Of a stretch of DNA of 64,000 nucleotides, positions 42,920 through 57,677 are shown one piece after another. Under the pieces are notes generated by a model. It saw nothing but the letters and a program-made list of their open reading frames with translations, had not been told where the DNA came from and ran no database searches. Numbering within the stretch: position 1 is the first letter of the stretch; every line of letters starts with the position of its first letter. Source of the stretch: Pseudomonadota bacterium (lineage in GTDB: Bacteria; Pseudomonadota; Alphaproteobacteria; Sphingomonadales; Govanellaceae); contig QEVO01000007.1 in the NCBI GenBank assembly GCA_003577275.1, positions 68,840 to 132,839 on the forward strand. The letters run 5' to 3'. The translations under genes were made by a program, and so were the position numbers.

Positions 42920-44211
42920 GGCGCATCTCCCGTCAGGAATTCAAGCCACACCCGGTACTGGTTGCGGATATATTCTTCGCTGGTGGCGGGCGGCGGCGCA
43001 TTGCGCCCTGCATCCGCCTCCTGGCGGTAGCCGCGCGCTACGTTGACCCAATCGGTCATGCCCCGTTCGTGCACCTGTTGCGCCCGTTCGTAAATTTCCA
43101 AATCATCAGCCACCACCGGGGAAAAACCTGAGGTGGCGATATTGCAGTAAAATACCGAATTGCGCGTCACTTCTTCCGGCGCGCCCTTAAGACGGAAGGC
43201 GTAGCCCCACACCTCGGTTTCATTGACGCTTAACGGCCGGACCACCCGGATGGTGCATTGCGCGCCATTGACGTTGGAGCTGGGATAGATCAGCATCAAG
43301 TGACGGTCGGTTTTAAGGATCTCCTCGGCCCGCGCCGCGCCATAAGCTTTTTCCAACGCGTGATAGTGATCGCCCTTGGGAATTTCCTGGTTGATAACGG
43401 AAATCAGCCCGGTGGCGTAGCTGTGCCCATAGCGGGTGATCTTGGATTGCAGCTTGGGCAGCACTGGCATCATTTTCGACGATCCGACCAGCGATTTGGT
43501 AACCGGATGCAGTTTGGCGGGATTACTGACGGAATTAATCGCAGTCGCCGCCGAGGCATGAGCGCCCATGGGGTGCAGGATGTCATTGAGATTTTCAAAC
43601 ATCATCTTCCAATTGGCGCGATAGCGATGGCCGATGGCGCCGGGAATGATCTCAATCTCACCCTCCGGCGAGCGGTCGATGATATCGTCGAAGCCGCTGC
43701 GGGCTTCGCCCAGATACGTCATCAGATCAACGCCGCCGGGTTTCAGTCTGGCGAAAATAAAGCCGCGATAAATTTCCACATCCTCAACCCGCGTCAAGTC
43801 GAACTCCGATTTAAGGCATTCCTGCGGATATTCCTCCGGGAAGGGCATGCCGAAAAACTTGCCTTTCAGCGTGAACGACCAGGCATGATAAGGACAGACG
43901 ATCCGTTTGGTGTTGCCGCGGGAATTGCCGCACAAGTGCGGCCCGCGATGAGGGCAGCGATTATGAAAGATGTTCACCTCGCCGTCATTATCCCGCATGA
44001 TGATGACATCCTGCGGCCCCAACCGAGTGGTGATATAGTCCCCCTTGTTCGGTATCTGGCTGACATGGCCGACATACATCCAGGCGCGGCTGAACAGGGT
44101 ATCCATTTCCAGATCGAATATGTCCGGATCGGTATAAATGTCGCGATGCACCCGATCCGGTTTGATCAGATCGGCGACATGTTTTTTTAAGGACTGATCT
44201 GGGGCCATCAT
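42907..44211 (-). CDS. Aromatic-ring-hydroxylating dioxygenase alpha (large) subunit, Rieske type
   Basis: 434 aa. Rieske motif CPHRGPHLC...CPYHAWSF and mononuclear iron motif NDILHPMGAH. Confidence 0.85.
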   Translation of the reverse strand: MMAPDQSLKKHVADLIKPDRVHRDIYTDPDIFDLEMDTLFSRAWMYVGHVSQIPNKGDYITTRLGPQDVIIMRDNDGEVNIFHNRCPHRGPHLCGNSRGNTKRIVCPYHAWSFTLKGKFFGMPFPEEYPQECLKSEFDLTRVEDVEIYRGFIFARLKPGGVDLMTYLGEARSGFDDIIDRSPEGEIEIIPGAIGHRYRANWKMMFENLNDILHPMGAHASAATAINSVSNPAKLHPVTKSLVGSSKMMPVLPKLQSKITRYGHSYATGLISVINQEIPKGDHYHALEKAYGAARAEEILKTDRHLMLIYPSSNVNGAQCTIRVVRPLSVNETEVWGYAFRLKGAPEEVTRNSVFYCNIATSGFSPVVADDLEIYERAQQVHERGMTDWVNVARGYRQEADAGRNAPPPATSEEYIRNQYRVWLEFLTGDAPCQA

Positions 44212-45293
44212 TGCTGCTCTCCAGCCAGAATATCGCGAAAGGCGCGGTTCAAATTTCCGCCTAAAATTTTGGCGGTATCAGTTTCGCTATAGCCGCGCCT
44301 CAAGAGCGCCGCGGCGACATTGAAGAAGCCGCGGGTATTGGAGACTTCCTTGATGTCCAGGCTGCGTTGCTTGCCGGGCGTTCGCAAGAATGGCGGCAGC
44401 GGCAGCATGTTTTGCGGCGGCAGCGCATCCCATCCCTGAATGGGGCCATCATGGCCGATGCCCACGTGGTCGATGCCGGCCACCTTCACCGCATGGGAAA
44501 TCTGGTCTATGTAATGCTCGATGGTGGTGGGGTCTTCTTCCGAGACCAGCACGCTCATGGGCGCGACGCAAAAGACGCCGCCGGTTTGGCCGATGGCGGC
44601 GATCACCTCATCGCTTTCATTGCGCTCGCTCTGCCGAATGGCGCGGGTGTTGCCATGGGAAATGATGACGGGCTTCGTCGTGACCCGGCACACATCCTCG
44701 ATGGTTTCCTCATTGGCATGGGATAGATCGATGATCACGCCGAGCTTGTTCATGCGCGCCACCACCTGCTTGCCAAACTCAGTCAGCCCGCTGCCCTTCG
44801 GCTCGCGAAAGCCAGCGCCGATCATGCCCTGGAAGTCGGAAGTGAGGAGCGATAATCGCAAGCCCATGCGGTGGAGATAGTCAACGTCATCGACGCGGCG
44901 GAAATGATCGCAACTATGAGCGCCGAGGATAATGCCGAGCCGGCCGGTGGCCACGGCGCGGTCGATGTCCTCCGGGCGAGTGATGCGCATGAGATGGGCG
45001 TCCATCTCGGCGATTTTGGCATTCCAGGCGGCGGTGCGCCTCTCAACCTCGCTAAAAAAATCCGGGCCGAAGGCGGGGTAGAAGAAGTTGCCGACATTAA
45101 GCCCGCTGCCTTCATAGGGTTTTAAATCAGCCACGCTGAGCTTTTCTGGCTCAAAGAGGATGTTCAGTTCGTTGCCTTGGCCCCAGAGAAAGACGGCGGC
45201 GCTGCTGATCACCAGGCCATCTCGAACCAACTTTTCCGCCGCTTCGCCGATGGCCTGGGGAGTGTCTGATGACTTGTGGGGAGTCACCTTCAT
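44208..45293 (-). CDS. Peptidase M19 (renal/membrane dipeptidase) family protein, non-canonical (P1)
   Basis: 361 aa. M19 core motifs GVIIDLSHANEETIEDV, PVIISHGNTRAI, GIDHVGIGHDG and LLRRGYSETDTAKILGGNLNRAF. The N-terminal DGHND zinc motif is not visible (LVISSAAV instead). Confidence 0.8.
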   Translation of the reverse strand: MKVTPHKSSDTPQAIGEAAEKLVRDGLVISSAAVFLWGQGNELNILFEPEKLSVADLKPYEGSGLNVGNFFYPAFGPDFFSEVERRTAAWNAKIAEMDAHLMRITRPEDIDRAVATGRLGIILGAHSCDHFRRVDDVDYLHRMGLRLSLLTSDFQGMIGAGFREPKGSGLTEFGKQVVARMNKLGVIIDLSHANEETIEDVCRVTTKPVIISHGNTRAIRQSERNESDEVIAAIGQTGGVFCVAPMSVLVSEEDPTTIEHYIDQISHAVKVAGIDHVGIGHDGPIQGWDALPPQNMLPLPPFLRTPGKQRSLDIKEVSNTRGFFNVAAALLRRGYSETDTAKILGGNLNRAFRDILAGEQQ

Positions 45294-45308
45294 GAAAACG
45301 TCCTGACG

Positions 45309-47678
45309 TTAGAATTGGTACATCACGCTGGCGCCAAATTCCCGCGGTCTGCCAGCTTTCTGAACGTCGTAAAAGCCAAGGGTTGCCGATCCGTCAAGAC
45401 CGGACGTGATGTAATCCTTGTTGGTCAGATTCTGACCGAATACCGCCAGCCGCCAATGTCCGGATTCATCCTCAAAGGTGATGCGCGCGTCGACCAGACT
45501 ATAGCCATCCTGGGCGATGTTTTCCGAATTGGTGGCTTCGGGGTAGAATTTGGAGCGGTAGGAATAATCACCGCGGAAGGTCAGCTTGCCCAGATTGGAC
45601 AACGGCACCGTGTACTGCGCCGCCAGATTGAGCGTCCATTTGGGCGAGCGCATGAACTCCGCATCTATGGAAATCGGCACGCCCGGGTCGAGCTCCTTGA
45701 ACTTCGTGCTCAAATAACCAACGCCGCCCGAGAGTTCAAAATTCTCCACCGGCAGCGCCTGCATTTCCAGTTCAAAGCCCTGGGTTCTCGCCTTGGCGGC
45801 ATTATCCACCAGAACGGTCACGCTGCCGTTCGGATTGACGACGCCGACGGTCATCTGAATATCCGAATAGTCGTTATAGAAGACTGCGCCATTCAGCCGC
45901 AGGCGGCGCTCAAGCCATTCCGATTTCACCCCTGCTTCATACGATAAGACTTTTTCCGGATCGAAGGAGGTGAAGGCCGCCGCGTCGAAGGAGCGCCCGT
46001 TGTATCCGCCGCTCTTGAAGCCATGCGCCACGGAGCCGTAGACCATGACATCAGGGGTAATGCGGTACTCAAGCCCGGCCTTGGGCGAGGTGGACGACCA
46101 GGTATCCTTAAGATTGGTATTGGGCGGAGCGATATTCGCGCCGCTGTTCACCCGCCGACTGAGGACGGAGAGATAGTCTTTCGTCTCCCGGGTGTGACGG
46201 ATGCCCAGCGTTACGCTGAGCTCATCGGTCAGCGCGAAGCTGCCTTGGGCAAAAGCGGCGTAGCTGTCGATCTTGATCTTGTTGACAAATAGGAAATCTA
46301 GGTCAAAGCCGACGTTATAAGGGTTGCCGGCGCCGCCCAGGCATGGCGCGGGGAAGGGCGCAGGACAGACCACGCCTGGCGCCAAGGGAATGACGGCGGC
46401 GGGCAAGGCTTCCAGCGCGTTATAAAGGCCGCCAAACACCGTGCCGTTATTAATTTCCGTTGCCGACTCATGGAGATAATAGCCGCCCACCAACCAGTTC
46501 AGTCGATCATTGAAAGACAGGCCGGAGACTTGCAGCTCCTGGCTGAACTGCTCCTGGTCCAGATCATAATCCGCGCCATTCAGCACCATTGGCGTGCCGT
46601 CCGCATCGCGGCCGACAAAGCTGTCCATCGTGCGGTAGGCGGAAATGGATTTCACCGTGACCACCCCCGGCGACCAAGTGAGTGTCAGATGGCCGCCGTA
46701 AATATCCTGATCCGAGCGGTTGGTGCCGGTGGCGTAGCTATCATACCGGCCTTCGGTGGTAAAGTCGTCGGTGAGCGGCGTGCCGGCTGGCCCACCCACC
46801 AGCATATTCCATATGCCGGCGAATGCCGCACCGGCAATATTGTTGTAGGTCACCTTGACCGGGATGCCTTGGTCGCGATTGATGGTGAAATCAAAGCCGA
46901 GATCGGCGGTAAGGGTTTCGCTCAATTCAGCGCGCAGGCCTAAGCGGCCGGTGACATCCTCGACGCCGCCGGCTTCCGCAACCTTGGCGCCATCGGGATA
47001 GGACAGCCGCTTGCCAAACCCTCCCTTGTGCTTATAGGAAAACGCCGCCTTCCCCGCCACTTTGTCGCCCAACGGGCCGGACAGGTAGCCGCGAGCCTCG
47101 TACCGTTCCCGCTCGCCGGCGATGACTTCCAGACGTCCGGTCGTCACCTTGCTGGGCGTGGTGGTGACGATGTTGAGCGCGCCGCCGATGGTGTTCTTAC
47201 CAAACAGCGTGCCCTGGGGCCCGCGCAACACTTCGATGCGCTCGATATCCATCAGATCCATGATGCCGCCGGTTGAGCGGGCGACATAGACGCCATCGAC
47301 ATAGGTGCCGACGCCGGGGTCCGTGGTAATGATGAAGTCGTAAGCGCCGATGCCGCGGATGAAGATGGAAGCAGTGCTGGGGCTGGCGCTGTTGCCGGCG
47401 CCAAGACCGATATCCAGATTGGGCACATAGCGCGCGATCTGATCCAAGGCATCCATCGTGCGATCCCTGAGCCCATCGGCGCTGAACGCGGTCACCGATA
47501 CCGGCGTTTCCTGCAAGCGTTCTTCGCGCTTACGCGCCGTCACCAGAATTTCTTCTAACGACACGCTAGCATCGGCGCTCAGCGCCGGCGTCATGGGATA
47601 AAGCGCTGCTCCAACCAGCGCGCACAACGCAACATCAGTAATATACCCACGGCGGCGATTCCGATTTATCTGTCTCAT
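45309..47678 (-). CDS. TonB-dependent receptor
   Basis: 789 aa with a signal peptide. LEEILVTARKREERLQETPVSVTAF and RIEVLRGPQGTLFGKNTIGGALNI. C-terminal ...FGASVMYQF. Confidence 0.9.
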   Translation of the reverse strand: MRQINRNRRRGYITDVALCALVGAALYPMTPALSADASVSLEEILVTARKREERLQETPVSVTAFSADGLRDRTMDALDQIARYVPNLDIGLGAGNSASPSTASIFIRGIGAYDFIITTDPGVGTYVDGVYVARSTGGIMDLMDIERIEVLRGPQGTLFGKNTIGGALNIVTTTPSKVTTGRLEVIAGERERYEARGYLSGPLGDKVAGKAAFSYKHKGGFGKRLSYPDGAKVAEAGGVEDVTGRLGLRAELSETLTADLGFDFTINRDQGIPVKVTYNNIAGAAFAGIWNMLVGGPAGTPLTDDFTTEGRYDSYATGTNRSDQDIYGGHLTLTWSPGVVTVKSISAYRTMDSFVGRDADGTPMVLNGADYDLDQEQFSQELQVSGLSFNDRLNWLVGGYYLHESATEINNGTVFGGLYNALEALPAAVIPLAPGVVCPAPFPAPCLGGAGNPYNVGFDLDFLFVNKIKIDSYAAFAQGSFALTDELSVTLGIRHTRETKDYLSVLSRRVNSGANIAPPNTNLKDTWSSTSPKAGLEYRITPDVMVYGSVAHGFKSGGYNGRSFDAAAFTSFDPEKVLSYEAGVKSEWLERRLRLNGAVFYNDYSDIQMTVGVVNPNGSVTVLVDNAAKARTQGFELEMQALPVENFELSGGVGYLSTKFKELDPGVPISIDAEFMRSPKWTLNLAAQYTVPLSNLGKLTFRGDYSYRSKFYPEATNSENIAQDGYSLVDARITFEDESGHWRLAVFGQNLTNKDYITSGLDGSATLGFYDVQKAGRPREFGASVMYQF

Positions 47679-47829: not shown

Positions 47830-47872
47830 ATACGGGCCTGCTCTATGGTAGGAAGCTCACGAACAGAGCCGG

Positions 47873-48604
47873 TTAATGCACCGGCCCCAGGAGGCCAAGG
47901 TAGGATGCCCGGGCGATGGCGTGAACGCGATTGGTTGCCCCCAGCTTTTCACACACCTTGCCCAGGTGGAAGCGTACGGTGCGTTCCGACAAACTCATAA
48001 TCGTGGCAATTTCATCCAGCGTCTTGCCATGGGCGGCCAGGGACAGGCATTCATTCTCACGATCAGAGAGAGGATCGGCGACCAACTCCCTCGGCGTGAC
48101 CTTCTTAATCAGGTCGGCCATGCAACGATGCGACAACGCCAGCAGGTGATTTTCATGATGCCTGTTGCGCTCCATCAATTCTTGGACAGGCAAATAGGAG
48201 GAAAATACGATATAGCCAAATCCTCCGAGCGCCGAGTGGACCGGGATAGATACCCCGGAGCGCACGCCCAGCTCCTGCACGCAACGGTTAAACAAGCTGA
48301 TTTGCATGGCGCTGGAAGTTTTGCCAAGACCAACAATTAAATTCGGCTTGGTATCATATCCCCACCACACCGGCAGCGTGGTTTGCAAACAAGCCTGGTA
48401 CACCGGGTCAAGTTTATACCATTCGTCATGCAGATAATGATCTTGCCACGACGGATCGATATTGGATTCCGCGGACATGCCGAGCATCGTCGGACGCTGC
48501 ATCGCGCCATATCTATCCCGAGCCCGCGGCGCATAGACCATGCCCGCGCCCATGAAATCCTGTGTCGATCTTTGCTGATAAAGCGTTGAGAGTGCTTGTA
48601 TCAA
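47873..48604 (-). CDS. LuxR-family transcriptional regulator with N-terminal autoinducer-binding domain (LuxR solo 1)
   Basis: 243 aa. The autoinducer-domain-like region reads EWYKLDPVYQACLQTTLPVWWGY...GVSIPVHSALGGFGYIVF. The C-terminal HTH reads LSDRENECLSLAAHGKTLDEIATIMSLSERTVRFHLGKVCEKLGATNRVHAIA. There is no luxI-type synthase in the window. Confidence 0.85.
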   Translation of the reverse strand: MIQALSTLYQQRSTQDFMGAGMVYAPRARDRYGAMQRPTMLGMSAESNIDPSWQDHYLHDEWYKLDPVYQACLQTTLPVWWGYDTKPNLIVGLGKTSSAMQISLFNRCVQELGVRSGVSIPVHSALGGFGYIVFSSYLPVQELMERNRHHENHLLALSHRCMADLIKKVTPRELVADPLSDRENECLSLAAHGKTLDEIATIMSLSERTVRFHLGKVCEKLGATNRVHAIARASYLGLLGPVH

Positions 48605-48705
48605 GACACGTCTCCAATCACCTCGTGCACATTATTTTGTTATGTTTGAGTTTGAAAAAATGCTCCCATAACTTCGTCGGAAAGTCCAGAACCCATCAAG
48701 GGTCG

Positions 48706-48721
48706 GTGTCAAAACTGACAG
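48706..48721. promoter_or_regulatory. lux-type box (b): GTGTCAAAACTGACAG
   Basis: It is the reverse complement of box (a) except for one base. It lies in the divergent region between luxR solo 1 (start 48604) and the SDR gene (start 48797). Confidence 0.45.
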
Positions 48722-48796
48722 TTGCCCATAGTGATCGATGCCCCCAGGTATATGCTCATGACCATTAGCCGATCGCAATTCATGGATAAATAATCG

Positions 48797-49567
48797 ATGA
48801 AAATCAAAGGGATAGGAGCTATTATCACCGGCGCAGGCTCGGGCATGGGAATGGCCACGGCCAAGATGCTGGCGCAGGCCGGGGCGCGCGTCGCCTTCTT
48901 GGACATCAATGAAGGCGGCATCCGCGACGCTGCCAAGGATGCGGGCGGCGTCGCCCTTCCCTGCAATGTCGCGGACCCCAAGAGCCTGGAGCGGGCCATA
49001 GCCGACGCCATTTCCGCGGTGGGACCGGCGCGCATCCTGGTGACCTGCGCCGGAGTGGGACGGATGGAGCCGCTGATCGGCAGGGATAACGCCGAAGCGT
49101 ATAGCCAAATGGTCGACACCGTCATGGTCAATCTCATCGGCACGCTCAATGCCGTGCGTCTGGTGGCCAATGATCTGGCGCGACAGCCGCCGCTTGATGA
49201 TGGATCGCGGGGCGCGATGATCATGGTGGCCTCTGGCGCGGCTTTCGATGGCGTGCCGCAATCCGTACCCTACACGGCATCCAAGGGCGCGGTCGTCAGC
49301 ATGACCTTGGCGCTGGCGCGGGAGTTCGGCGATCTTGGCATCCGCGTCAACACCATCAGCCCCGGCGCTTTCGCCACCCCCATGATCAAAGCCGCGCCGA
49401 AGGAGATGCTGGACGTCATCAAAAACACAACGCCGTTTCCAAAACGGCCCGGCGTGCCAGAGGAATTTGCGGCTCTTGCTCTTCATATCTGCGAGAATGA
49501 TTTCATGAATGGCTCCGTGTTGCGCTTGGATGGCGCACACCGAACGGGTTATTTTTCCAATGGTTGA
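48797..49567 (+). CDS. Short-chain dehydrogenase/reductase (SDR, 3-hydroxyacyl-CoA dehydrogenase-like)
   Basis: 256 aa. AIITGAGSGMGMATA, VASGAA and YTASKGAVVSM (YxxxK). Confidence 0.9.
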   Translation: MKIKGIGAIITGAGSGMGMATAKMLAQAGARVAFLDINEGGIRDAAKDAGGVALPCNVADPKSLERAIADAISAVGPARILVTCAGVGRMEPLIGRDNAEAYSQMVDTVMVNLIGTLNAVRLVANDLARQPPLDDGSRGAMIMVASGAAFDGVPQSVPYTASKGAVVSMTLALAREFGDLGIRVNTISPGAFATPMIKAAPKEMLDVIKNTTPFPKRPGVPEEFAALALHICENDFMNGSVLRLDGAHRTGYFSNG

Positions 49568-50996: not shown

Positions 50997-52115
50997 TTAA
51001 GCGACAAAGATTTCCTTAAAGACTCGCACAAAATTGCCACCTAGGATTCCAGTAATATCCTGGTCGCTGTAACCGCGACGAAGCAGTCCTTCCACCAGGG
51101 TTCGCACCCGATCGGCGCCACACAGCTCGGGAATGTCCATGCTGCGAACTTGCTTTAAGTACGACACTTGCCGCGCCGGACCCATGGAATTTTCGCAAGC
51201 GTCAAAACCGACCATCGGCGTTTCAAGCCCTAATCCTACGTGCTGCGGGCCAATAAGTTGGCACACGTGATCAAAGTGATCGAGCACATGCTCGACCGTC
51301 ACCGGGTCTTCCAGCCGCACCATGGGTCGCCAGAACATCAGGCCAATGACGCCGCCAGTTGCGGCCATCGCCTTCAACATCTCATCGGAATTGTTGCGCG
51401 AGGTGGGGCAGATCGCGGCCGCATTGCCGTGGGTGATCAATACCGGCTTTGATGAAGCGTCCATGGTCTCGCGCCGGGTTTTAAGTCCGCAGTGCGATAC
51501 GTCCACCGCCATGCCGAGGGAATTCATGCGCTCCACCACGGCGCGGCCGAAACGGGTCAAGCCGCCGTCGCGGCCGTCGCCTTCATCAGCAGAGGTGCCG
51601 ATCCGATTTTGGCCAAAACAGGTTAAGAGCGCATGCCGCAGCCCCACTTCCGAATAGAAAAAATTGATATCGTCCAGTGTGCGGAAAATCTCGCCGCCAC
51701 AGTGGGTTCCCACCAGAAGACCGATGCGGCCGCTTTTTTGCGCCTTGTCAAAGGACTCCCGCTTGGTCAGCAGCATCATGTCATCGGCATGATCGGCAAC
51801 AAAGGTGTTCCAACGCCCAAACACGCGCAATGCTGTCTCCAGCGGATTAGCGACCGGTCCCATATGGGCCGGGTCAAGAAATCCCTGCGGTATCAAAATG
51901 GCGTTATAGCCCTCCTTGCGGTATTCATCAATCAGTCGGTTGGTCAAGGGCCCGCTGCCCGTGAAATCCATGATATGCTTGCCATCAATCTCATGGGCAG
52001 GGGCCTCCGTGGTATTGAACACGAATGACTGCTCAACCAGCCTGGCCGCATGGTCGCGTGTTTCATTCATGGTATCAGCAGTCGCTGCTGTCTTAGCCAT
52101 TGTACTTCCTATCAT
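50997..52115 (-). CDS. Peptidase M19 family protein, non-canonical (P3; tandem array member)
   Basis: 372 aa, collinear with P2 and P4. GMAVDVSHCGLKTRRETMD and ...ILGGNFVRVFKEIFVA. The N-terminus reads SFVFNTTEA. Confidence 0.8.
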   Translation of the reverse strand: MIGSTMAKTAATADTMNETRDHAARLVEQSFVFNTTEAPAHEIDGKHIMDFTGSGPLTNRLIDEYRKEGYNAILIPQGFLDPAHMGPVANPLETALRVFGRWNTFVADHADDMMLLTKRESFDKAQKSGRIGLLVGTHCGGEIFRTLDDINFFYSEVGLRHALLTCFGQNRIGTSADEGDGRDGGLTRFGRAVVERMNSLGMAVDVSHCGLKTRRETMDASSKPVLITHGNAAAICPTSRNNSDEMLKAMAATGGVIGLMFWRPMVRLEDPVTVEHVLDHFDHVCQLIGPQHVGLGLETPMVGFDACENSMGPARQVSYLKQVRSMDIPELCGADRVRTLVEGLLRRGYSDQDITGILGGNFVRVFKEIFVA

Positions 52116-52144: not shown

Positions 52145-53248
52145 CTAGGCGACAAAGATTTCCTTGAAAGCGCGCACGAAATTGCCGCCCAATATTCCGG
52201 CAATATCCTGATCGCTGTATCCGCGGCGGATCAGTCCTTCTACCAGCGTCCGCACCCTGTCATGGCCGCATAACTCGGGAATATCCATACTGCGAACCTG
52301 TTTTAAGTACGACACTTGCCGCGCCGGCGTCATGGTATTCTCGCAGTTATCAAAGCCGACAACCGGCGTCTCGAACCCCAAGCCCACATGTTGCGGGCCG
52401 ATCAGTTGACAGACATGATCGAAGTGATCAAGCAGGTGTTCGATCGTCACCGGATCCTCCAGCCGCACCATGGGCCGCCAGAACATCAACCCGACGACGC
52501 CGCCCGTGGCCGCCATCGCCTTCAACATTTCATCGGAATTGTTGCGCGAAGAGGGGCAAATCGCCGCGGCATTGCCATGGGTGATCAATACCGGCTTCGA
52601 GGAGGCGTCTATGGCTTCGCGACGAGTCCTAAGCCCGCAGTGGGATACGTCCACCGCCATGCCGATGCTGTTCATGCGCTCCACCATGGCGCGGCCGAAG
52701 CGGGTCAGCCCGCCGTCGCGGTCGTCGCCCTCGTCTACGGAAGTGCCCACTCTGTTTTGCCCAAAGCAAGTGAGCAGCGCATGGCGCAATCCCATTTCGG
52801 TATAGAAAAAGTCGATATCATCCAGGGTGCGAAAAATTTCACCGGCGTGATGGGTTCCCACCAAGAATCCAATGCGACCTGTCTGTTGCGCCCTATCAAA
52901 TGATTCGCGTTTGGTCAGCAGCATCATGTCATCGGCATGATCGGCGACATAGGTATTCCAGCGGCCGAATACCCGCAAACACATCTCCCGCATGTTGGCG
53001 GCCGGACACATGTTGGAGGGATCAAGGAATCCTTGCGGAATCAGGATCGCGTTATACCCCTGCTGACGCCATTCGTCGATCAGACGCTCTTCCAATGGCT
53101 CCAGTCCAACGAAATTAACCCGTGGTTTGCCGGAGGCGTAACTGACGGATGCTTCCGTCGTGTTGAACACGAATGACTCGGCGACCAACCGCGCCGCATG
53201 TTCGCGCGCGTCACCTTCGTTGCTGCTTTTTACCGCTGCCTTGGCCAT
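52145..53248 (-). CDS. Peptidase M19 family protein, non-canonical (P4; tandem array member)
   Basis: 367 aa. GMAVDVSHCGLRTRREAID and ...ILGGNFVRAFKEIFVA. A 29-nt gap to P3 suggests co-transcription. Confidence 0.8.
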   Translation of the reverse strand: MAKAAVKSSNEGDAREHAARLVAESFVFNTTEASVSYASGKPRVNFVGLEPLEERLIDEWRQQGYNAILIPQGFLDPSNMCPAANMREMCLRVFGRWNTYVADHADDMMLLTKRESFDRAQQTGRIGFLVGTHHAGEIFRTLDDIDFFYTEMGLRHALLTCFGQNRVGTSVDEGDDRDGGLTRFGRAMVERMNSIGMAVDVSHCGLRTRREAIDASSKPVLITHGNAAAICPSSRNNSDEMLKAMAATGGVVGLMFWRPMVRLEDPVTIEHLLDHFDHVCQLIGPQHVGLGFETPVVGFDNCENTMTPARQVSYLKQVRSMDIPELCGHDRVRTLVEGLIRRGYSDQDIAGILGGNFVRAFKEIFVA

Positions 53249-53374: not shown

Positions 53375-53409
53375 GCTGAACAGAATGAATAAAATGAACG
53401 CAATAGAGC

Positions 53410-54153
53410 CTAGTGAATGGGCCCCAGCAGCCCGAGATAGGAAGCGCGAGCGATGGCGTGCGTACGGTTAACCGTGCCCAGCTTATCGCAGGCATTGCCC
53501 AGATGGAAGCGGACAGTGCGCTCGGAAAGGTCGAGGATAACCGCAATATCTTCCAAAGTCTTGCCATGAGCCGCCAGCGTCAAACATTCAACTTCGCGGG
53601 AAGATAATGAAATCCCCACAGGTTTTGACACTTCGACATGATTAATGATCTTGGAAAAATAGCGATGCGCCAATGACATGATCTGGTCTTGATGGTGCTC
53701 GTTGCGGTCGAGAAGTTCCTGAATAGGTATGCAAGAAGGAAAAACGATATACCCGAAACCGCCCAACGCGGAGTGGAGCGGGATCGATACGCCAGAACGG
53801 ACCCCCACTCTCTCGGCGCAGCTATGGAACAAACTGACCTGCGCGGCGCTGGATGTCTTGCCAAGTCCCACGATCAAATTTGGCTTGGTGTCATACCCCC
53901 ACCATACCGGCAACGTCGTCGTCAAGCATGCCTGGTAGACCGGATCGATTTTGTAGTGTTCGTGTTGGAGATAATAGTCGCCCCACCAGGGAGCGAGCTC
54001 GCATTGCGACGACATGGTAATAAGCGTTGGCCGCTGCATGGCGCCGGAACGATCGCGGGCGCGAGGCGCATAACTCAAACACGCGCCTTCAAAGTCCGTA
54101 ATGGCGACTTCCTCGTATAGCGATGACAGGGATTCGGTTACAATGCCGCTCAC
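53410..54153 (-). CDS. LuxR-family regulator with autoinducer-binding domain (LuxR solo 2)
   Basis: 247 aa, collinear with solo 1. HYKIDPVYQACLTTTLPVWWGYDTKPNLIVGLGKTSS is near-identical. The HTH reads LSSREVECLTLAAHGKTLEDIAVILDLSERTVRFHLGNACDKLGTVNRTHAIA. Confidence 0.85.
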   Translation of the reverse strand: MSGIVTESLSSLYEEVAITDFEGACLSYAPRARDRSGAMQRPTLITMSSQCELAPWWGDYYLQHEHYKIDPVYQACLTTTLPVWWGYDTKPNLIVGLGKTSSAAQVSLFHSCAERVGVRSGVSIPLHSALGGFGYIVFPSCIPIQELLDRNEHHQDQIMSLAHRYFSKIINHVEVSKPVGISLSSREVECLTLAAHGKTLEDIAVILDLSERTVRFHLGNACDKLGTVNRTHAIARASYLGLLGPIH

Positions 54154-54299
54154 TGCATGACCTCATCCAGCTTGTGCCCGCCCGCGCCAGCGGTCCACCT
54201 ACAGCCCGTCAAGACGGCTGCTTCAGTATCAATTTTCTCTAGCCGGCAGTAAAATGCTCACACAGCTTACCAGCATTGTCCAGATTTTATCCGGAACAA

Positions 54300-54315
54300 G
54301 TGTCAGAAGTGACAG
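54300..54315. promoter_or_regulatory. lux-type box (e): GTGTCAGAAGTGACAG
   Basis: It lies about 150 nt upstream of the luxR solo 2 start (54153) and 66 nt after the acyl-CoA synthetase stop. Confidence 0.4.
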
Positions 54316-54380
54316 GTGGGCTGCCGCCGGCCCTGGGTGTAAAATTTATATTATTATAATTCAATGAGTTATATTTATCT

Positions 54381-56204
54381 TCAAGCGAGTTCTATCACAT
54401 TCCCACCGCCGGCATAGAGTTCAGCGACCTTATCCGCCCGCCGCCGCAAGGTGGTGCGCTGGTTCAAATACCCCTTATCGGTGGTCTCGCCGGCGTCGAT
54501 GTCCGGCGGCGTCGCCAACAACAGGAGGCGGGCAATCTGGGTGGAATTTCCCGGGTATTGCCGATTATAGACGGCTGCCTTTTCCCGCAAGGCGCGTTGC
54601 AGGTCCGGGTGCCTGAGCACCTCCTCAATCGAGAGTTTCGCCTCATGATCGCCAATGAGACTACGGCAGGCCGCCACACTGGGAAACGCCAGGACGCTCA
54701 GGTCGGCTTGGTTTTCCCCCGCGATGGCCACATCCAACAAGAGCGGTGACAGCGCATTGACAAAAGCGGTGCGCACCGCGCCCACATTGACCCAGGTGCC
54801 GGATTGCAATTTGAAATTCTCGCTGATGCGGCCATGGAATTTCAGCCCAGCTTCCGGCGCATCGGGATGGCGAAATATCACGGCATCGCCGGTGCAATAA
54901 AATCCGTCCTCATCGAAAGCCTTCTTTGTCGCCTCTGGATCCTCCAGATAGCCCGAGGTCACGCTGGGGCCGCGCACGCGAATTTCCAGCCGCTCCTGAA
55001 CCAGGGCCAGCTTGATCTCCACCCCCGGCACCGGCAGGCCAATGACGCCGCTCTCATTCACCAGAAAATAAGAGGACATCGCCAGGGGACCGGTCTCCGT
55101 CGCCCCCCAGCCCGAGGTCATCGGCACCACGCGACCCAGAGTTTTCTGCGATACCGCCTGCAGGCGGTCCCACGTGGTTTGCGGCAAGGCGGCGGCGCCG
55201 TAAAACATCAATTCAAGGCGGGAGAAAAAAGTTGCCGCCAGCTCATCATCTTCCTCAAGGAACGGCAACAGCGCCTCGTAGCCGGCGGGCACATTGAAAT
55301 AAATGGTGGAAGCAATCTCTTTCAGATTATCGACCGTGGTGCGTATCAGCGCCGGCGTCGGCTTGCCGCCGTCGATGTAAAGGGCGCCGCCGTTGCGCAG
55401 CACCAGATTGAAATTATGATTGCCGCCGAAGGTGTGGCTCCACGGCAGCCAATCCACCAGAATCGGCGGACGAACTTCGACGAATGGCCAGCTGCGCGCC
55501 AGCGACTGCTGATTGGCGCACAGCATGCGCTGGCTGTTGACGACGCCTTTGGGATTGCCGGTCGATCCCGAGGTGAACAGAATTTTCGCCACCGTATCTT
55601 CGTTGACGGAACCATGCGCTCGCCGCACCCGCTCGTCATGCCCACGAGAGGAAAGAAGATCATGGAATTTCTTGCCGCCGCCGCCATCACCGCTGACAAC
55701 CGGGATCTTGGCCTCGCCGATGGCCGCCAGCGCTGCGGCAAAAGGCGCGTGAGCCTCAACATAGATAAGCCCCGGTTTGACCAAATCGACGATATGGCGA
55801 AGCTTGGCGAAATCCCTGGACATCAAGCTGTAGGCCGGCGACACCGGCGCCACGGGAATGCCCACATGCAACGCCGCCAGGGTTAGGAGCGCGTGATTGA
55901 TGCTATTGCCGGAAAGAATGGCGACCGGCCGTTCGGCGCTCAAGCCGAAATCGAGAAGGGCGCCGGCCAGCGCGACCACGATGTCCGTGGTTTCACCATA
56001 GGTCAGCCGCCGCCAGGAAGACGGCCCGTCGCGTTCAGCCAAAAAAAGCCGTTCTGGGGCTTGCCGCTGCCAACGCAACAGGTGCTCGGTCAGGGCTTTG
56101 GGGTATTCACCCATCTCCACCCGCGAACGTAAAATACAGCCGCCCTCTTTACGCGGCGTCAATTCGATATCTACCGGCGCAAACAGTCCTGCATCCTTAT
56201 GCAC
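54381..56204 (-). CDS. AMP-dependent acyl-CoA synthetase/ligase (feruloyl-CoA-synthase-like architecture)
   Basis: 607 aa. AMP-binding motif ILFTSGSTGNPKGV, followed by GWGATETGP, YCTGD and a long C-terminal extension. The substrate cannot be assigned from the sequence alone. Confidence 0.85.
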   Translation of the reverse strand: MHKDAGLFAPVDIELTPRKEGGCILRSRVEMGEYPKALTEHLLRWQRQAPERLFLAERDGPSSWRRLTYGETTDIVVALAGALLDFGLSAERPVAILSGNSINHALLTLAALHVGIPVAPVSPAYSLMSRDFAKLRHIVDLVKPGLIYVEAHAPFAAALAAIGEAKIPVVSGDGGGGKKFHDLLSSRGHDERVRRAHGSVNEDTVAKILFTSGSTGNPKGVVNSQRMLCANQQSLARSWPFVEVRPPILVDWLPWSHTFGGNHNFNLVLRNGGALYIDGGKPTPALIRTTVDNLKEIASTIYFNVPAGYEALLPFLEEDDELAATFFSRLELMFYGAAALPQTTWDRLQAVSQKTLGRVVPMTSGWGATETGPLAMSSYFLVNESGVIGLPVPGVEIKLALVQERLEIRVRGPSVTSGYLEDPEATKKAFDEDGFYCTGDAVIFRHPDAPEAGLKFHGRISENFKLQSGTWVNVGAVRTAFVNALSPLLLDVAIAGENQADLSVLAFPSVAACRSLIGDHEAKLSIEEVLRHPDLQRALREKAAVYNRQYPGNSTQIARLLLLATPPDIDAGETTDKGYLNQRTTLRRRADKVAELYAGGGNVIELA

Positions 56205-56465
56205 GTCACTTCCTCTCAGCCCTCAATTTTTCCGGCGCAATATGCACTATACCGCACTATTAATATAGCGCGTTAAGAAGCCATGCCAAGTTGGCTATAG
56301 TGACAGGCGTTCAATACAGCACGCACGACCTGCCCAGAAACCGCAAAGGAAGTCTTAATACTTTGAAAAATAACAACTTATTTTTAACATTAGCATAGGG
56401 TAACACAGCGACCCCCATCGCTTCGGCGCCAGCCGTGCAATGCTGAACCCGATAACGCCCCCGCC

Positions 56466-57677
56466 CTACCCGCAAACGTCCTCGAAAACCCGCAGCGCAT
56501 TTTCTCCCAAAATACCGCGGATCTGCTCATCGGAATAGCCGCGCTTGACCAAGCCCCGCGTGATATTGGCTAGATCGCGATAATCCTCAAACCCCACCAC
56601 ATGGTCGTCGGTATCAACCCGATCCTCCGGTCGAAAACCGATCTCGGCGAGCGAGTCTTTCATCAGCGCCGCCATCATGCCGGGGGGCAGTTGATAAGGC
56701 CAGTCTGTGCCGAGCGACACATGCCGCCACCCCACGAGATTGGCAATATAGTCGATATGATCGAGGACAATCTCTATGCTCGGCGTGGGCGTGCGCGATA
56801 TGAAAAAGGGAACCACCAGCACGCCAATGACGCCGCCGGTGTCGGCAATCGCCTTCAGGGCATCGTCGGATTTGGCCCTGGCCACCGGACTGAGGGCTTT
56901 GGCGCAAGTATGATTGGCGTTCACCGGTCGCTTGGCGACACGGCAGGCATCCATCGTCGTCGCCTGACCGCAATGGCTGACGTCAACCAGAAGGCCCAGC
57001 TCTTCGCAATGCCGCACCACGTCTACGCCAAACATGGAAAGACCGGCATCCACCCGCTCGGTGCAACCGACGCCAACATTGTCCATGCGATTGTAGGTCA
57101 GCATCAGTGAGCGAAGCCCCAGATCATAGGCGCGGTCGATGGCGCTCAATTTACGGGGGATGGGAATGGTCGGCTGCCAATGGCCGTAAAGGGCGATAAC
57201 GCCGTCTTGCTTGGCTTGGCGAATTTCCGCCGCAGTGGTAACCCGCCGCAGCCAAGGCAGCGCGTCGTAACGCCGGGCCATCTTTTCGTAGATTTCGCCA
57301 TCAGGATCACTGCCCTCATAAACGGGCATGATATAAGTGCCGCATGTCAGACCGGACTGGATGAACCAGTCCCGCACTACGTCGGAACGGCCGGCAATCG
57401 CCATCTCATAGGGCCAGAATGAGGCAATGCAGAAAGCGCTGAAGCCGGCGCCGGCCTTGGCCACCTCTTGCCGCATCTCGGCCAGCATGCCTTTCGGATA
57501 ATGCGAGAAAATATTTGAGCCGCCAATATCGGTAGACATCCAGTCAAAGATTATGCTCTGACGGTGCAGCTTCAAAGCGCGAGCTTCCTCGCTATCGCTA
57601 AGTCCGAACGGATATTGCCCGGGCTGCATGCCAATTCCTTCCGTTTCTTTGCGAAATAGCCCAACGAAAATTGCCAT
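56466..57677 (-). CDS. Peptidase M19 family protein, non-canonical (P5)
   Basis: 403 aa. GLLVDVSHCGQATTMD, PVNANHTCAKAL, WRHVSLGTDWP and LVKRGYSDEQIRGILGENALRVF. The N-terminus reads SIIFDWMST where DGHND is expected. The internal MQPGQYPF is an alternative start. Confidence 0.8.
   Translation of the reverse strand: MAIFVGLFRKETEGIGMQPGQYPFGLSDSEEARALKLHRQSIIFDWMSTDIGGSNIFSHYPKGMLAEMRQEVAKAGAGFSAFCIASFWPYEMAIAGRSDVVRDWFIQSGLTCGTYIMPVYEGSDPDGEIYEKMARRYDALPWLRRVTTAAEIRQAKQDGVIALYGHWQPTIPIPRKLSAIDRAYDLGLRSLMLTYNRMDNVGVGCTERVDAGLSMFGVDVVRHCEELGLLVDVSHCGQATTMDACRVAKRPVNANHTCAKALSPVARAKSDDALKAIADTGGVIGVLVVPFFISRTPTPSIEIVLDHIDYIANLVGWRHVSLGTDWPYQLPPGMMAALMKDSLAEIGFRPEDRVDTDDHVVGFEDYRDLANITRGLVKRGYSDEQIRGILGENALRVFEDVCG

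What the first reader, a model, noticed from the sequence alone, without database searches (positions are those of the whole stretch)
44208..57677. Five M19 (renal dipeptidase family) paralogs in 13.5 kb, all apparently lacking the canonical zinc-binding HxD and bridging Glu
Seen: P1 44208..45293, P2 49601..50704, P3 50997..52115, P4 52145..53248 and P5 56466..57677 all carry the M19 core. The core motifs are (V/I)D(L/V)SH, (I/N)(S/T/A)H(G/T)N, HVG(I/L)G and RRGYS-x7-GGN.
By-eye alignment to the canonical family layout shows three differences.
- The N-terminal DGHND motif is replaced by non-ligand residues (VISSAAV; FVFNATEA; FVFNTTEA twice; IIFDWMST).
- The bridging Glu in the ...VEGGH... strand appears as LGAHS / VGTH(N/C/H) / YGHWQ.
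- The LTH histidine appears as LTS/LTC/LTY.
Two of the His ligands are retained.
Established: M19 enzymes are binuclear-zinc amidohydrolase-fold dipeptidases that also cleave dehydropeptides and some beta-lactams.
Inference: these paralogs form a divergent subfamily with altered metal site and chemistry. Each is embedded in a TBDR/oxygenase or transporter operon, and they have expanded massively here.
One speculative link to the neighbouring cassettes: hydrolysis of dehydro- or unusual peptides would release enamine/imine products for RidA and then 2-oxo acids for the E1/E2 systems.
Basis: partly seen in the sequence, partly recalled or inferred. Interest (0 to 1): 0.72.

Follow-up and report, generated by a model that had tools for sequence, protein, structure and literature searches.

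The report
M19-like hydrolases missing half their metal site
Five intact genes resembling renal dipeptidase have lost the residues that hold one of the enzyme's two zinc ions; four of them belong to a rare, unstudied branch that sits in operons for breaking down imported aromatic compounds rather than peptides.

Summary
Five intact minus-strand genes at the stated coordinates match Pfam M19 (E~1e-65). Independent alignments show that DPEP1's His20 and Asp22 (alpha metal), Glu125 (bridge) and His152 are replaced. His198, His219, Arg230 and Asp/Glu288 are kept.

The five are not one subfamily.
- P5 belongs to a very large Gln125/Tyr152 branch. That branch already has a solved but functionally unassigned structure (2i5g, P. 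aeruginosa), and elsewhere its neighbours are peptidase-type genes.
- P1-P4 belong to a rare, monophyletic His125 clade, about ten 50%-identity clusters near the top of a search of 1.84 billion representatives. His125, His198 and His219 are invariant and position 288 is usually Glu.

All five are under strong purifying selection. In ten independent genomic contexts, His125-clade genes lie beside IadDE-like Rieske oxygenases, LuxR/TonB-receptor pairs, hydantoinase A/B or other aromatic-catabolic genes. None lies beside a peptidase.

Best reading: active cytoplasmic hydrolases with the alpha site deleted and a remodelled, probably mononuclear beta-type site, recruited to catabolism of imported aromatic or N-heterocyclic amides, lactams or lactones. 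This is a new variant of a known kind. Substrate and metal content are untested.

The parts
44208..45293 (-). P1, an M19-fold protein of the His125 clade (H126/H192/H213, D282; S152; A32/V34 in place of HxD)
   Evidence: Pfam PF01244 E=1.2e-64 from profile position 64 onward. Ligand mapping. Its stop codon overlaps the Rieske alpha start codon (ATGA). dN/dS about 0 against the L007 ortholog.
49601..50704 (-). P2, His125 clade (H133/H203/H224, E293; C161; T31/A33)
   Evidence: Its ortholog is P0004. dN/dS 0.073.
50997..52115 (-). P3, His125 clade (H138/H208/H229, E298; C166; T36/A38)
   Evidence: AlphaFold2 model pLDDT 93.2. Best fold match is 2i5g, followed by canonical M19 structures. dN/dS 0.041.
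52145..53248 (-). P4, His125 clade (H133/H203/H224, E293; C161; T31/A33)
   Evidence: dN/dS 0.017.
56466..57677 (-). P5, an M19-fold protein of the widespread Gln125/Tyr152 clade (Q168, Y195, H235, H256, R267, D325). The true start may be Met17, which would give 387 aa.
   Evidence: Pfam PF01244 E=8.7e-68, plus a weak Amidohydro_2 hit.. The 387-aa gene call is from the near-identical MAG. dN/dS 0.080.
45309..47678 (-). TonB-dependent receptor, 15 bp upstream of P1 and the first gene of the P1 operon
   Evidence: Pfam Plug + TonB_dep_Rec. Homologous receptors (41-47% identity) precede His125-type M19 genes in L004-L006 and L008-L010.
42907..44211 (-). Rieske oxygenase alpha subunit, IadD-like, translationally coupled to P1
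   Evidence: Pfam Rieske + Ring_hydroxyl_A. Best PDB hits are 7yls/8h2t/9o71, which are IadD (E=4.6e-84, residues 13-427).
42428..42919 (-). Rieske oxygenase beta subunit (IadE-like)
   Evidence: Pfam Ring_hydroxyl_B E=1.5e-36.
41513..42415 (-). Putative cyclase / kynurenine-formamidase-family hydrolase. IadI is annotated as a kynurenine formamidase, which is this family type.
   Evidence: Pfam PF04199 E=2e-23. Only PDB relative is 5ibz, uncharacterised. IadI annotation from 10.1101/2025.10.25.684584.
40748..41497 (-). Short-chain dehydrogenase, last gene of the P1 operon
   Evidence: Pfam adh_short_C2 E=1.5e-61.
47873..48604 (-). LuxR-family regulator with an autoinducer-binding domain
   Evidence: Pfam GerE + Autoind_bind. 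LuxR-TBDR-M19 triads recur in other loci.
48797..49567 (+). Short-chain dehydrogenase, convergent with P2. This is the real gene here, not the overlapping 302-aa minus-strand ORF.
   Evidence: Pfam adh_short_C2 E=3.6e-40. The minus-strand ORF has no Pfam hit. The same gene is called in L001.
53410..54153 (-). LuxR-family regulator (RhlR/LasR/QscR-like), upstream of P4-P3-P2
   Evidence: Pfam. PDB phmmer hits to RhlR, LasR and QscR at E~1e-13.
54381..56204 (-). AMP-binding (acyl-CoA ligase-like) enzyme, downstream of P5
   Evidence: Pfam AMP-binding E=2.5e-51.
57706..58998 (-). MFS transporter, 28 bp upstream of P5
   Evidence: Pfam MFS_1 E=1.3e-38.
59098..61353 (-). TonB-dependent receptor heading the MFS-P5 unit
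   Evidence: Pfam Plug + TonB_dep_Rec.

Best explanation
All five genes encode functional, cytoplasmic enzymes with the renal-dipeptidase (M19) TIM-barrel fold. The alpha metal site (His20/Asp22) has been deleted and the bridging Glu125 replaced.

P5 is an ordinary member of the very large Gln125/Tyr152 branch of the family. The structural prototype of that branch is 2i5g, and elsewhere it keeps company with peptide- and amide-degrading genes.

P1-P4 belong to a rare derived clade. In it, position 125 is always His, the two beta-site histidines (198, 219) and Asp195 are invariant, and the strand-8 acid is usually lengthened from Asp to Glu.

Most likely mechanism (inferred, not shown): a single divalent metal is held at the old beta position by His125, His198 and His219. 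It activates water, with Glu/Asp288 as general base, to hydrolyse a C-N or C-O bond in a carboxylate-bearing substrate held by the retained Arg230.

The clade has been recruited from peptide metabolism into catabolism of aromatic or N-heterocyclic compounds. These are imported by the adjacent TonB-dependent receptors and regulated by the adjacent LuxR-type receptors.

Two candidate roles for P1, neither tested:
(a) A deconjugating amidase that frees an aryl acid for the IadDE-like Rieske oxygenase to which it is translationally coupled.
(b) A hydrolase that opens the lactam or lactone made by that oxygenase.
For: Shown:
- Family and fold: PF01244 at E~1e-65. AlphaFold2 pLDDT 93.2, with 2i5g, DPEP1, Sco3058 and GliJ as top fold matches.
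- Ligand pattern: confirmed by independent alignments.
- His125 clade conservation (47 sequences): H125, D195, H198 and H219 are 100% conserved; R230 in 43 of 47; E288 in 43 and D288 in 4.
- Phylogeny: the clade is monophyletic and nested beside the Gln125 radiation, with canonical enzymes basal.
- Selection: dN/dS 0.00-0.08 against orthologs and 0.09-0.13 between paralogs, all ORFs intact.
- Location: no signal peptide or Tat motif.
- Operon structure: a 15-bp gap between the TBDR and P1, and an ATGA overlap between P1 and Rieske alpha.
- Partner oxygenase: Rieske alpha hits IadD at E=4.6e-84.
- His125-type contexts (ten independent): four with IadDE-like Rieske alpha/beta, four with LuxR-TBDR, two with hydantoinase A/B, two in flavin-monooxygenase/extradiol clusters, none with peptidases.
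- Gln125-type contrast: neighbours are dominated by beta-lactamase-fold hydrolases (21 of 130), GNATs, S9/S15 peptidases and MR/MLE enzymes, with no Rieske family among the 25 listed.

Established knowledge:
- In DPEP1, Zn1 is bound by His20/Asp22/Glu125 and Zn2 by Glu125/His198/His219 (PMC9305348).
- Beta-mononuclear amidohydrolases with Glu/His/His or Cys/His/His sites are active hydrolases (PMC12017989).
- The iad pathway contains a lactone 'hydration' step with no assigned enzyme, and an amidase step (10.1101/2025.10.25.684584).
Against: - No metal content, structure with metal, or activity is available. I could not read the AlphaFold coordinates or the heteroatoms of 2i5g, so the His/His/His site geometry is inferred from homology alone.
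- His20 is reported to be essential in human DPEP1, so loss of the alpha site could mean loss of hydrolytic activity.
- M19 homologues without a zinc site and without catalysis exist (PvdM).
- Characterised iad clusters contain no M19-like gene and use MarR rather than LuxR regulators. The analogy to indole-acetate catabolism therefore rests on the oxygenase, the kynurenine-formamidase-type annotation and the general logic only.
- The sample of His125-type contexts is small, about ten lineages, nearly all from uncultured bacteria.
- P2-P4 have no enzyme partners beyond a convergent SDR, so their role is the least constrained.
Confidence: 0.5

Rival explanations
1. They are still ordinary dipeptidases (or close variants such as N-acyl-amino-acid or D-amino-acid dipeptide hydrolases) that manage with one metal. 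The unusual ligands are a family-level variation with no change of biological role.
For: - Arg230, Asp/Glu288, Asp195, His198 and His219 are retained.
- E125Q is the one Glu125 exchange reported not to inactivate human DPEP1 (PMC9305348).
- Neighbours of the Gln125 branch are peptidases, beta-lactamase-fold hydrolases and MR/MLE enzymes.
- All database annotations say 'membrane dipeptidase', though these are automatic.
Against: - His20 is reported essential in DPEP1.
- His152 is also lost.
- For P1-P4, none of ten independent contexts contains a peptidase or peptide transporter, and all are oxidative aromatic-catabolic settings.
- P5 itself sits between an MFS transporter and a CoA ligase, not among peptidases.
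Confidence: 0.2
2. They are non-catalytic binding or chaperone proteins, like PvdM or DPEP3. They would hold a substrate or intermediate for the neighbouring oxygenases without doing chemistry.
For: - There is precedent. PvdM lost four of five zinc ligands and works by handing ferribactin to PvdP (PMC9305348).
- DPEP3 carries Tyr for His198 and Asn for Asp288 (alignment).
- Three of the five canonical ligands are lost here as well.
Against: - PvdM-type proteins replace the bridging residue with a hydrophobic one, lose His198 and are periplasmic.
- Here position 125 is an invariant His or Gln, His198 and His219 are invariant across both clades sampled, and Asp/Glu288 is nearly so.
- The proteins lack export signals.
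- That pattern of conservation, concentrated at catalytic positions, is what an active site shows.
Confidence: 0.1
3. They use the barrel for metal-independent or non-hydrolytic chemistry (isomerase, decarboxylase, hydratase or lactonase without metal), as some other amidohydrolase-superfamily members do.
For: - The superfamily has a recognised metal-independent subset (PMC12017989).
- Distant fold matches include LigI-like 2-pyrone-4,6-dicarboxylate hydrolase and the LigW and gamma-resorcylate decarboxylases.
- P5 has a weak Amidohydro_2 hit.
- One His125-type locus has two Amidohydro_2 genes beside it.
- The aromatic-catabolic setting suits such reactions.
Against: - Those fold matches are weak (TM 0.4-0.5) and reflect only the shared barrel.
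- Three invariant histidines at positions that bind Zn2 in DPEP1 are more simply read as a metal site.
- There is no direct evidence for any specific non-hydrolytic reaction.
Confidence: 0.15

Closest known systems
Canonical M19 dipeptidases: human renal dipeptidase DPEP1 (1itq) and Streptomyces Sco3058 (3id7)
   Same: Same Pfam family (PF01244, about 220 bits) and the same predicted barrel (Foldseek E~1e-23, TM about 0.76). They share Asp195, His198, His219, Arg230, Asp234, Asn329 and Arg332.
   Different: His20 and Asp22 (alpha metal), Glu125 (bridge) and His152 are all replaced. Asp288 is Glu in P2-P4. The genomic setting is oxygenase and transporter operons rather than peptide metabolism.
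2i5g, 'amidohydrolase from Pseudomonas aeruginosa' (325 aa; probably PA5396, first gene of the dimethylglycine dgc operon)
   Same: It is the best sequence and fold match in the PDB: subfamily profile E=8e-63 against 4e-45 for Sco3058, and Foldseek rank 1. It shows the same loss pattern, with GFQNAH (Gln at 125) and QMCYN (Tyr at 152), so it is the same type as P5.
   Different: P1-P4 have His, not Gln, at 125, a small residue instead of Tyr152, and mostly Glu288. 2i5g has no assigned function. PA5396 is still called a 'putative dipeptidase' (PMC13492115). The identity of 2i5g with PA5396 rests on matching length and my memory, and was not shown here.
PvdM (3b40), the pyoverdine-maturation M19 homologue
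   Same: An M19-fold protein that has lost the dipeptidase zinc site. It is the published example that 'dipeptidase' annotations in this family can be wrong (PMC9305348).
   Different: PvdM keeps only His219, which is dispensable. Its bridging residue is hydrophobic, and it is membrane-anchored, periplasmic and non-catalytic. The proteins here keep His198 and His219, have His or Gln at 125, and lack export signals.
Human DPEP3 (6vgo)
   Same: An M19 family member with a crippled active site.
   Different: The opposite residues are affected. DPEP3 keeps HxD and Glu125 but has Tyr for His198 and Asn for Asp288 (alignment).
Beta-mononuclear amidohydrolases: NagA-type subtype IV (Glu/His/His) and D-aminoacylase/OngB subtype V (Cys/His/His)
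   Same: Working analogy. These enzymes hold one metal at the beta position with a strand-3/4 residue plus the strand-5 and strand-6 histidines, use a strand-8 acid as base, and hydrolyse N-acyl amides (PMC12017989).
   Different: They belong to different sequence families (Amidohydro_1/3). The ligand at the first position would here be His (P1-P4) or Gln (P5), a set not among the subtypes named in that paper. Metal binding here is untested.
Variovorax iad (indole-3-acetic acid degradation) locus
   Same: P1's operon partner is a close structural relative of IadD (E=4.6e-84) with an IadE-like beta subunit. The operon also has a putative-cyclase (kynurenine-formamidase-family) gene, matching the annotation of IadI, and a dehydrogenase. 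An AMP-forming ligase lies nearby.
   Different: No M19-like gene is reported in iad clusters. iad uses MarR regulators and an ABC transporter, whereas this locus uses LuxR-type regulators and TonB-dependent receptors. No thiolase or IadC-type reductase was seen in the P1 operon. The substrate is probably different.

Membership tests
Peptidase family M19 (Pfam PF01244 / renal dipeptidase fold) | Significant match to the family HMM above the gathering score | tested here: met
   219-229 bits against a cut-off of 26 for all five. The matches begin only at profile positions 41-76.
Peptidase family M19 (Pfam PF01244 / renal dipeptidase fold) | (beta/alpha)8 barrel superposable on DPEP1 and Sco3058 | tested here: met
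   AlphaFold2 model of P3 with pLDDT 93.2. Foldseek to 1itq and 3id7 gives E~1e-23 and TM 0.73-0.77. This is a predicted structure, and only P3 was modelled.
Catalytically canonical M19 dipeptidase (binuclear zinc) | HxD on strand 1 (His20, Asp22) binding the alpha metal | tested here: not met
   The residues are A/V (P1), T/A (P2-4) and M/T (P5). The same loss is seen in all 120 nearest relatives.
Catalytically canonical M19 dipeptidase (binuclear zinc) | Bridging Glu125 | tested here: not met
   His in P1-P4 and Gln in P5.
Catalytically canonical M19 dipeptidase (binuclear zinc) | His198 and His219 (beta metal) | tested here: met
   Invariant in all five paralogs and in all relatives aligned (126 of 126).
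Catalytically canonical M19 dipeptidase (binuclear zinc) | Asp288 on strand 8 and His152 near the scissile bond | tested here: not met
   Asp288 is kept in P1 and P5 but is Glu in P2-P4. His152 is S, C, C, C and Y in P1 to P5.
Catalytically canonical M19 dipeptidase (binuclear zinc) | Dipeptidase activity and two zinc ions per subunit | not testable with these tools
   Needs purified protein, ICP-MS and substrate screening.
Gln125/Tyr152 branch of M19 (2i5g-like) | Gln at 125, Tyr at 152, Asp at 288, no HxD, and closer to 2i5g than to canonical enzymes | tested here: met
   Met for P5 only (Q168, Y195, D325). P1-P4 have His125 and no Tyr152, so they are sister to this branch rather than members of it.
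PvdM-like non-hydrolytic M19 homologues | Periplasmic or membrane-anchored; bridging residue hydrophobic; His198 lost | tested here: not met
   No N-terminal signal, transmembrane segment or Tat motif was found by hydropathy scan. Position 125 is His or Gln, and His198 is invariant. Criteria are from PMC9305348.
Beta-mononuclear amidohydrolases (mechanistic class, not a sequence family) | Three ligands at the beta positions (strand 3/4 residue plus strand 5 and 6 histidines) and a strand-8 acid | tested here: inconclusive
   The positions are occupied by metal-competent residues, His/His/His plus Glu or Asp in P1-P4. They lie at or just after strand ends in the model: strand 131-137 then H138, strand 203-205 then H208, H229 within strand 225-230, strand 293-295 then E298. 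Side-chain geometry and metal occupancy could not be examined.
iad-type indole-3-acetate degradation cluster | IadD/IadE Rieske oxygenase with IadC reductase, a MarR regulator, and IadF/G/H/I/J | tested here: not met
   IadD/E-like subunits and a cyclase-family gene are present. There is no MarR, no thiolase and no reductase in the operon, and the regulators are LuxR-type. So this is a related oxygenase module, not an iad locus.

The most novel reading that the evidence does not exclude
The His125 clade is a previously undescribed class of amidohydrolase-superfamily enzyme. It would have a three-histidine mononuclear site at the beta position of an M19 barrel, evolved from peptidases to hydrolyse aryl-acyl amides or the lactam/lactone products of IadDE-like Rieske oxygenases. 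With a dedicated TonB-dependent receptor and a quorum-sensing-type LuxR receptor that senses the substrate, it would form a recurrent three-part module for scavenging N-heterocyclic or conjugated aromatic compounds in freshwater and marine Proteobacteria.
Probability: 0.3. Interest if true: 0.65.

Novelty: new variant of a known kind. Interest (0 to 1): 0.5.

Why it matters
Thousands of proteins are automatically labelled 'membrane dipeptidase' on the strength of the M19 domain. This locus shows that a large share of the sequences nearest to it lack the residues that define the binuclear zinc mechanism.

One rare clade has moved into aromatic-compound catabolism. If its three-histidine site binds a metal, that would add a new ligand set to the catalogue of amidohydrolase active sites. 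It would also supply a missing hydrolytic step next to IadDE-type oxygenases.

The finding also offers a genetic handle for assigning a function to the long-orphaned 2i5g/PA5396 branch. The recurring LuxR-TonB receptor-hydrolase arrangement suggests how uncultured aquatic bacteria sense and import scarce aromatic substrates.

None of this changes a major concept. It is a well-defined enzymology lead.

Tried and rejected
- NCBIfam gave no hit for any of the five, so no curated subfamily name exists.
- An exact-sequence look-up of P3 found nothing, probably because gene callers chose a later start. The near-identical MAG was reached through P0004 instead.
- The Cummings/Raushel paper on cog2355 and Sco3058 (PMC2808448) is not held. 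I could not check whether ligand-less subgroups were discussed there.
- Literature searches for 2I5G and PA5396 found no functional assignment.
- The single metagenome scan with a His125-only alignment returned almost only Gln125-type loci, 2 of 80 being His125. It was useful as a contrast set but did not enlarge the His125 sample.
- Considered and set aside: the proteins as acyl-homoserine-lactone lactonases, because of the LuxR neighbours. The only support is a weak barrel-level fold match to a lactonase, and a TonB-dependent receptor is not expected for such small diffusible signals.
- Considered and set aside: Glu37 of P3 (position 21, Glu in 33 of 47 clade members) as a substitute for Asp22. 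It is absent in P1 and variable in the clade, and by alignment it occupies the position between the two lost ligands.
- Considered and set aside: Cys at position 152 as a fourth ligand. It is not conserved within the clade (C/T/A/N/S/G/V).
Those genes form a separate operon at 31906-38150.
- AlphaFold coordinates and PDB heteroatom records are not exposed by the tools, so I could not measure the site geometry or see whether 2i5g holds a metal.

Full report
WHAT IS THERE

Each matches Pfam PF01244 (Peptidase_M19) at about 220 bits. The matches begin only at profile positions 41-76, so the part of the model that contains the HxD motif is not aligned. No NCBIfam model recognises any of them. P2, P3 and P4 are 77-81% identical to one another, while P1 and P5 are about 30-35% identical to everything else.

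ARE THE LIGANDS REALLY MISSING?

I verified a reference first. My recalled human DPEP1 sequence is 100% identical to PDB 1itq_A over 369 residues. It contains His20, Asp22, Glu125, His152, His198, His219, Arg230 and Asp288 in the expected motifs. The roles of the five metal ligands are restated in PMC9305348: Zn1 is bound by His20/Asp22/Glu125 and Zn2 by Glu125/His198/His219.

Several alignments give the same register:
- phmmer of P3 against DPEP1 and Sco3058
- a HMMER profile of 27 subfamily members against Sco3058, where the consensus 'vidalev' pairs with 'VVDGHND', 'glqn' with 'GAEG' and 'llty' with 'TLTH'
- MAFFT alignments with 120 and 150 relatives
- hmmalign

The outcome is as follows.

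| DPEP1 position | P1 | P2 | P3 | P4 | P5 |
|---|---|---|---|---|---|
| His20 | Ala32 | Thr31 | Thr36 | Thr31 | Met47 |
| Asp22 | Val34 | Ala33 | Ala38 | Ala33 | Thr49 |
| Glu125 | His126 | His133 | His138 | His133 | Gln168 |
| His152 | Ser152 | Cys161 | Cys166 | Cys161 | Tyr195 |
| His198 | His192 | His203 | His208 | His203 | His235 |
| His219 | His213 | His224 | His229 | His224 | His256 |
| Arg230 | Arg224 | Arg235 | Arg240 | Arg235 | Arg267 |
| Asp288 | Asp282 | Glu293 | Glu298 | Glu293 | Asp325 |

The AlphaFold2 model of P3 is confident (pLDDT 93.2, pTM 0.91). It places these residues at or just after the ends of barrel strands, as expected for amidohydrolase active-site residues. Small corrections: the RRGYS...GGN spacing is 8 residues rather than 7, and P5 departs from several of the quoted motifs.

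THE LOSS IS A FAMILY TRAIT, AND THERE ARE TWO KINDS

All 120 closest database relatives of P3 lack His20, Asp22 and Glu125 and keep His198 and His219; Arg230 is kept in 119 of them.

An exhaustive search of 1.84 billion representative proteins with P1 gave 10,338 hits at E<=1e-3. Among the best 150:
- The dominant pattern is no HxD, Gln125, Tyr152, His198, His219, Arg230, Asp288.
- Only about nine carry the canonical His-Asp-Glu set.
- About ten carry His125.

This ranking is by similarity to P1, so it does not give proportions for the whole family.

A neighbour-joining tree places the canonical enzymes basally. The Gln125 sequences form a broad radiation that contains P5. The His125 sequences form a single clade that contains P1 in one sub-branch and P2-P4 in another. 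Within 47 His125 sequences, His125, Asp195, His198 and His219 are invariant, Arg230 is present in 43, and position 288 is Glu in 43 and Asp in 4, the latter being the P1 sub-branch.

A SOLVED STRUCTURE OF THE GLN125 KIND ALREADY EXISTS

The subfamily profile hits 2i5g ('amidohydrolase from Pseudomonas aeruginosa', released 2006) at E=8e-63, against 4e-45 for the best canonical dipeptidase. The aligned 2i5g sequence reads GFQNAH and QMCYN, which is Gln125/Tyr152. 2i5g is also the top Foldseek match of the P3 model.

Its length of 325 aa equals that of PA5396 (978 bp), the first gene of the dimethylglycine (dgc) operon. PA5396 is still called only a 'putative dipeptidase' in a 2026 paper (PMC13492115). 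The identification of 2i5g with PA5396 is my inference. I found no functional assignment for either.

THE GENES ARE FUNCTIONAL

- Against orthologs in a related MAG (L007), dN/dS is 0.00-0.08.
- Between the tandem paralogs, dN/dS is 0.09-0.13 with dS above 1.
- P2, P3 and P4 each have their own ortholog in other genomes (P0004, P0001, P0002), so the triplication is old.
- None has an N-terminal signal peptide, transmembrane segment or Tat motif.
- The whole 21-kb arrangement is about 100% identical in GCA_039794145.1 and 91-100% identical in a second MAG.

CONTEXT

In the window, P1 lies 15 bp after a TonB-dependent receptor. Its stop codon overlaps the start codon of a Rieske oxygenase alpha subunit (ATGA). 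After that come the beta subunit, a putative-cyclase/kynurenine-formamidase-family hydrolase and an SDR.

The alpha subunit's best solved relatives are 7yls/8h2t/9o71 (E=4.6e-84 over residues 13-427). These are IadD of the Variovorax indole-3-acetate degradation locus. According to 10.1101/2025.10.25.684584, that pathway runs as follows:
- the IadCDE oxygenase produces a lactone
- the lactone is hydrated, with no enzyme assigned to the step
- IadJ acts as a dehydrogenase
- IadF is an AMP-forming CoA ligase
- IadI, annotated as a kynurenine formamidase, acts as an amidase

No M19-like gene is reported in iad clusters.

P4-P3-P2 follow a LuxR-type receptor (RhlR/LasR/QscR-like) and face a convergent SDR. 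P5 follows a TonB-dependent receptor and an MFS transporter and precedes an AMP-binding enzyme.

Elsewhere, I could examine His125-type genes in ten independent contexts.

| Context | Loci |
|---|---|
| Adjacent to IadDE-like Rieske alpha/beta | window, L008, L016, L017 |
| LuxR - TonB receptor - M19 | window, L004 group, L008, L009 |
| Fused in an operon with hydantoinase A/B | L004; L103/104, with a 4-bp overlap and a downstream amidase |
| Flavin-monooxygenase / extradiol-dioxygenase / CoA-ligase clusters | L105 (Streptomyces), L106 |
| ADH and enoyl-CoA hydratase | L018 |

None of the ten contains a peptidase.

In contrast, a Pfam census of 130 immediate neighbours of Gln125-type genes is headed by beta-lactamase-fold hydrolases (21), GNAT acetyltransferases (8), DUF3471 (7), S15 and S9/DPP-IV peptidases and MR/MLE-family enzymes. 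No Rieske family appears among the 25 listed (examples).

HOW IT MOST LIKELY WORKS

Shown: the alpha-site ligands are gone. The residues at the three positions that hold Zn2 in DPEP1 are His/His/His in P1-P4 and Gln/His/His in P5, and they are invariant within each clade. The strand-8 acid and the carboxylate-binding Arg230 are retained.

[quoted passage not shown] Beta-mononuclear enzymes with Glu/His/His (NagA type) or Cys/His/His (D-aminoacylase/OngB type) are efficient amide hydrolases (PMC12017989). E125Q is the one Glu125 exchange reported not to inactivate human DPEP1, whereas His20 is essential (PMC9305348).

Inferred: the proteins are beta-mononuclear hydrolases. The Gln125 branch probably still acts on peptide-like amides. 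The His125 clade has been recruited to aromatic or N-heterocycle catabolism, acting on a carboxylate-bearing amide, lactam or lactone.

From memory of the Sco3058 work, which I could not check here, Asp22 also anchors the substrate's free amino group. Losing it while keeping Arg230 would fit N-acylated substrates over free dipeptides. Two concrete roles for P1 are possible: deconjugation before the oxygenase, or ring opening after it. I cannot choose between them.

RIVALS

- Ordinary dipeptidases using one metal. This is plausible for P5 and unlikely for P1-P4, given their contexts.
- PvdM-like non-catalytic binders. Unlikely, because His198, His219, Asp/Glu288 and residue 125 are strictly conserved and the proteins are cytoplasmic, whereas PvdM lost His198, has a hydrophobic bridging residue and is periplasmic.
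- Metal-independent or non-hydrolytic barrel chemistry. This cannot be excluded.

NOVELTY AND VERDICT

The fold, the family and the general idea that M19 homologues can lose zinc ligands (PvdM, DPEP3) are known. The Gln125 branch even has a structure. What appears undescribed is the following:
- the His125 clade with its His/His/His + Glu arrangement
- its consistent placement beside Rieske oxygenases, hydantoinases and LuxR/TonB-receptor pairs
- four copies in one 9-kb stretch

I rate it a new variant of a known kind, of moderate interest to enzymologists of the amidohydrolase superfamily.

Noticed in passing
window 47873-48604 (-) and 53410-54153 (-): Two full-length quorum-sensing-type LuxR receptors (autoinducer-binding + GerE domains; best PDB matches RhlR/LasR/QscR at E~1e-13). 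No LuxI was seen among the window genes scanned. The LuxR - TonB receptor - M19 order recurs in several unrelated MAGs, which suggests these 'solos' sense the imported substrate rather than an acyl-homoserine lactone.
   Followed up: partly
window 48632-49540 (-) versus 48797-49567 (+): The 302-aa minus-strand ORF has no Pfam hit. The overlapping plus-strand ORF is a clear short-chain dehydrogenase and is the gene called in the near-identical MAG. The minus-strand ORF is probably spurious.
   Followed up: yes
window 44208-57677 compared with L007: Synonymous divergence from the L007 orthologs varies 25-fold within 13 kb: P1 dS 0.024, P2 0.21, P4 0.28, P5 0.44, P3 0.62. This suggests recombination between strains or gene conversion among the paralogs.
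   Followed up: no
L007 (JACFMS010000010.1) versus L001 and L008-L011: The closest species-representative genome is labelled 'Sphingomonadales bacterium', while every other close relative is labelled Gammaproteobacteria. One of the MAG taxonomic labels is probably wrong.
   Followed up: no
window 31906-38150 (-): A separate operon: Rieske protein (351 aa), RidA-family protein (36667-37080), SRPBCC/polyketide-cyclase-like protein (36219-36659), DAO-type flavoprotein, 2-oxoacid dehydrogenase E1 alpha and beta, and an E2 consisting of the catalytic domain only (222 aa, no lipoyl domain detected). A second E1 alpha/beta pair and another Rieske protein lie at 25218-28904 (+).
   Followed up: partly
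window 348-2450, 17809-19995, 22965-25163, 38174-40459, 45309-47678, 59098-61353; 19992-22709 and 29310-31904: Six TonB-dependent receptors and two large STAND/MalT-type LuxR regulators in 64 kb, in addition to the two QS-type LuxR regulators. The window is a dense island of receptor-headed catabolic modules.
   Followed up: partly
window 6196-11263 and 14372-17637; L018 1337-6573: A cytochrome b/4Fe-4S/FlpD fusion protein, a COX1 oxidase subunit, and a 757-aa Fer4_5 protein followed by ApbE (possibly a NosR/NirI-like pair). The cytochrome b/4Fe-4S/FlpD fusion and a COX1 oxidase gene also lie next to a His125-type M19 gene in an unrelated metagenome contig (L018).
   Followed up: no
window 56466-57677 (-): The P5 ORF is 403 aa from the first ATG, but the gene call in the near-identical MAG is 387 aa, starting at Met17 (MQPGQ...). 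The first 16 codons are probably not translated.
   Followed up: partly
L004 295-5618; L103 4826-9728: In two unrelated lineages, a His125-type M19 gene is immediately followed by hydantoinase A and B (ATP-dependent lactam- or hydantoin-opening enzymes). The genes overlap by 4 bp in L103, where an amidase also lies downstream. This points to cyclic-amide chemistry for part of the clade.
   Followed up: partly
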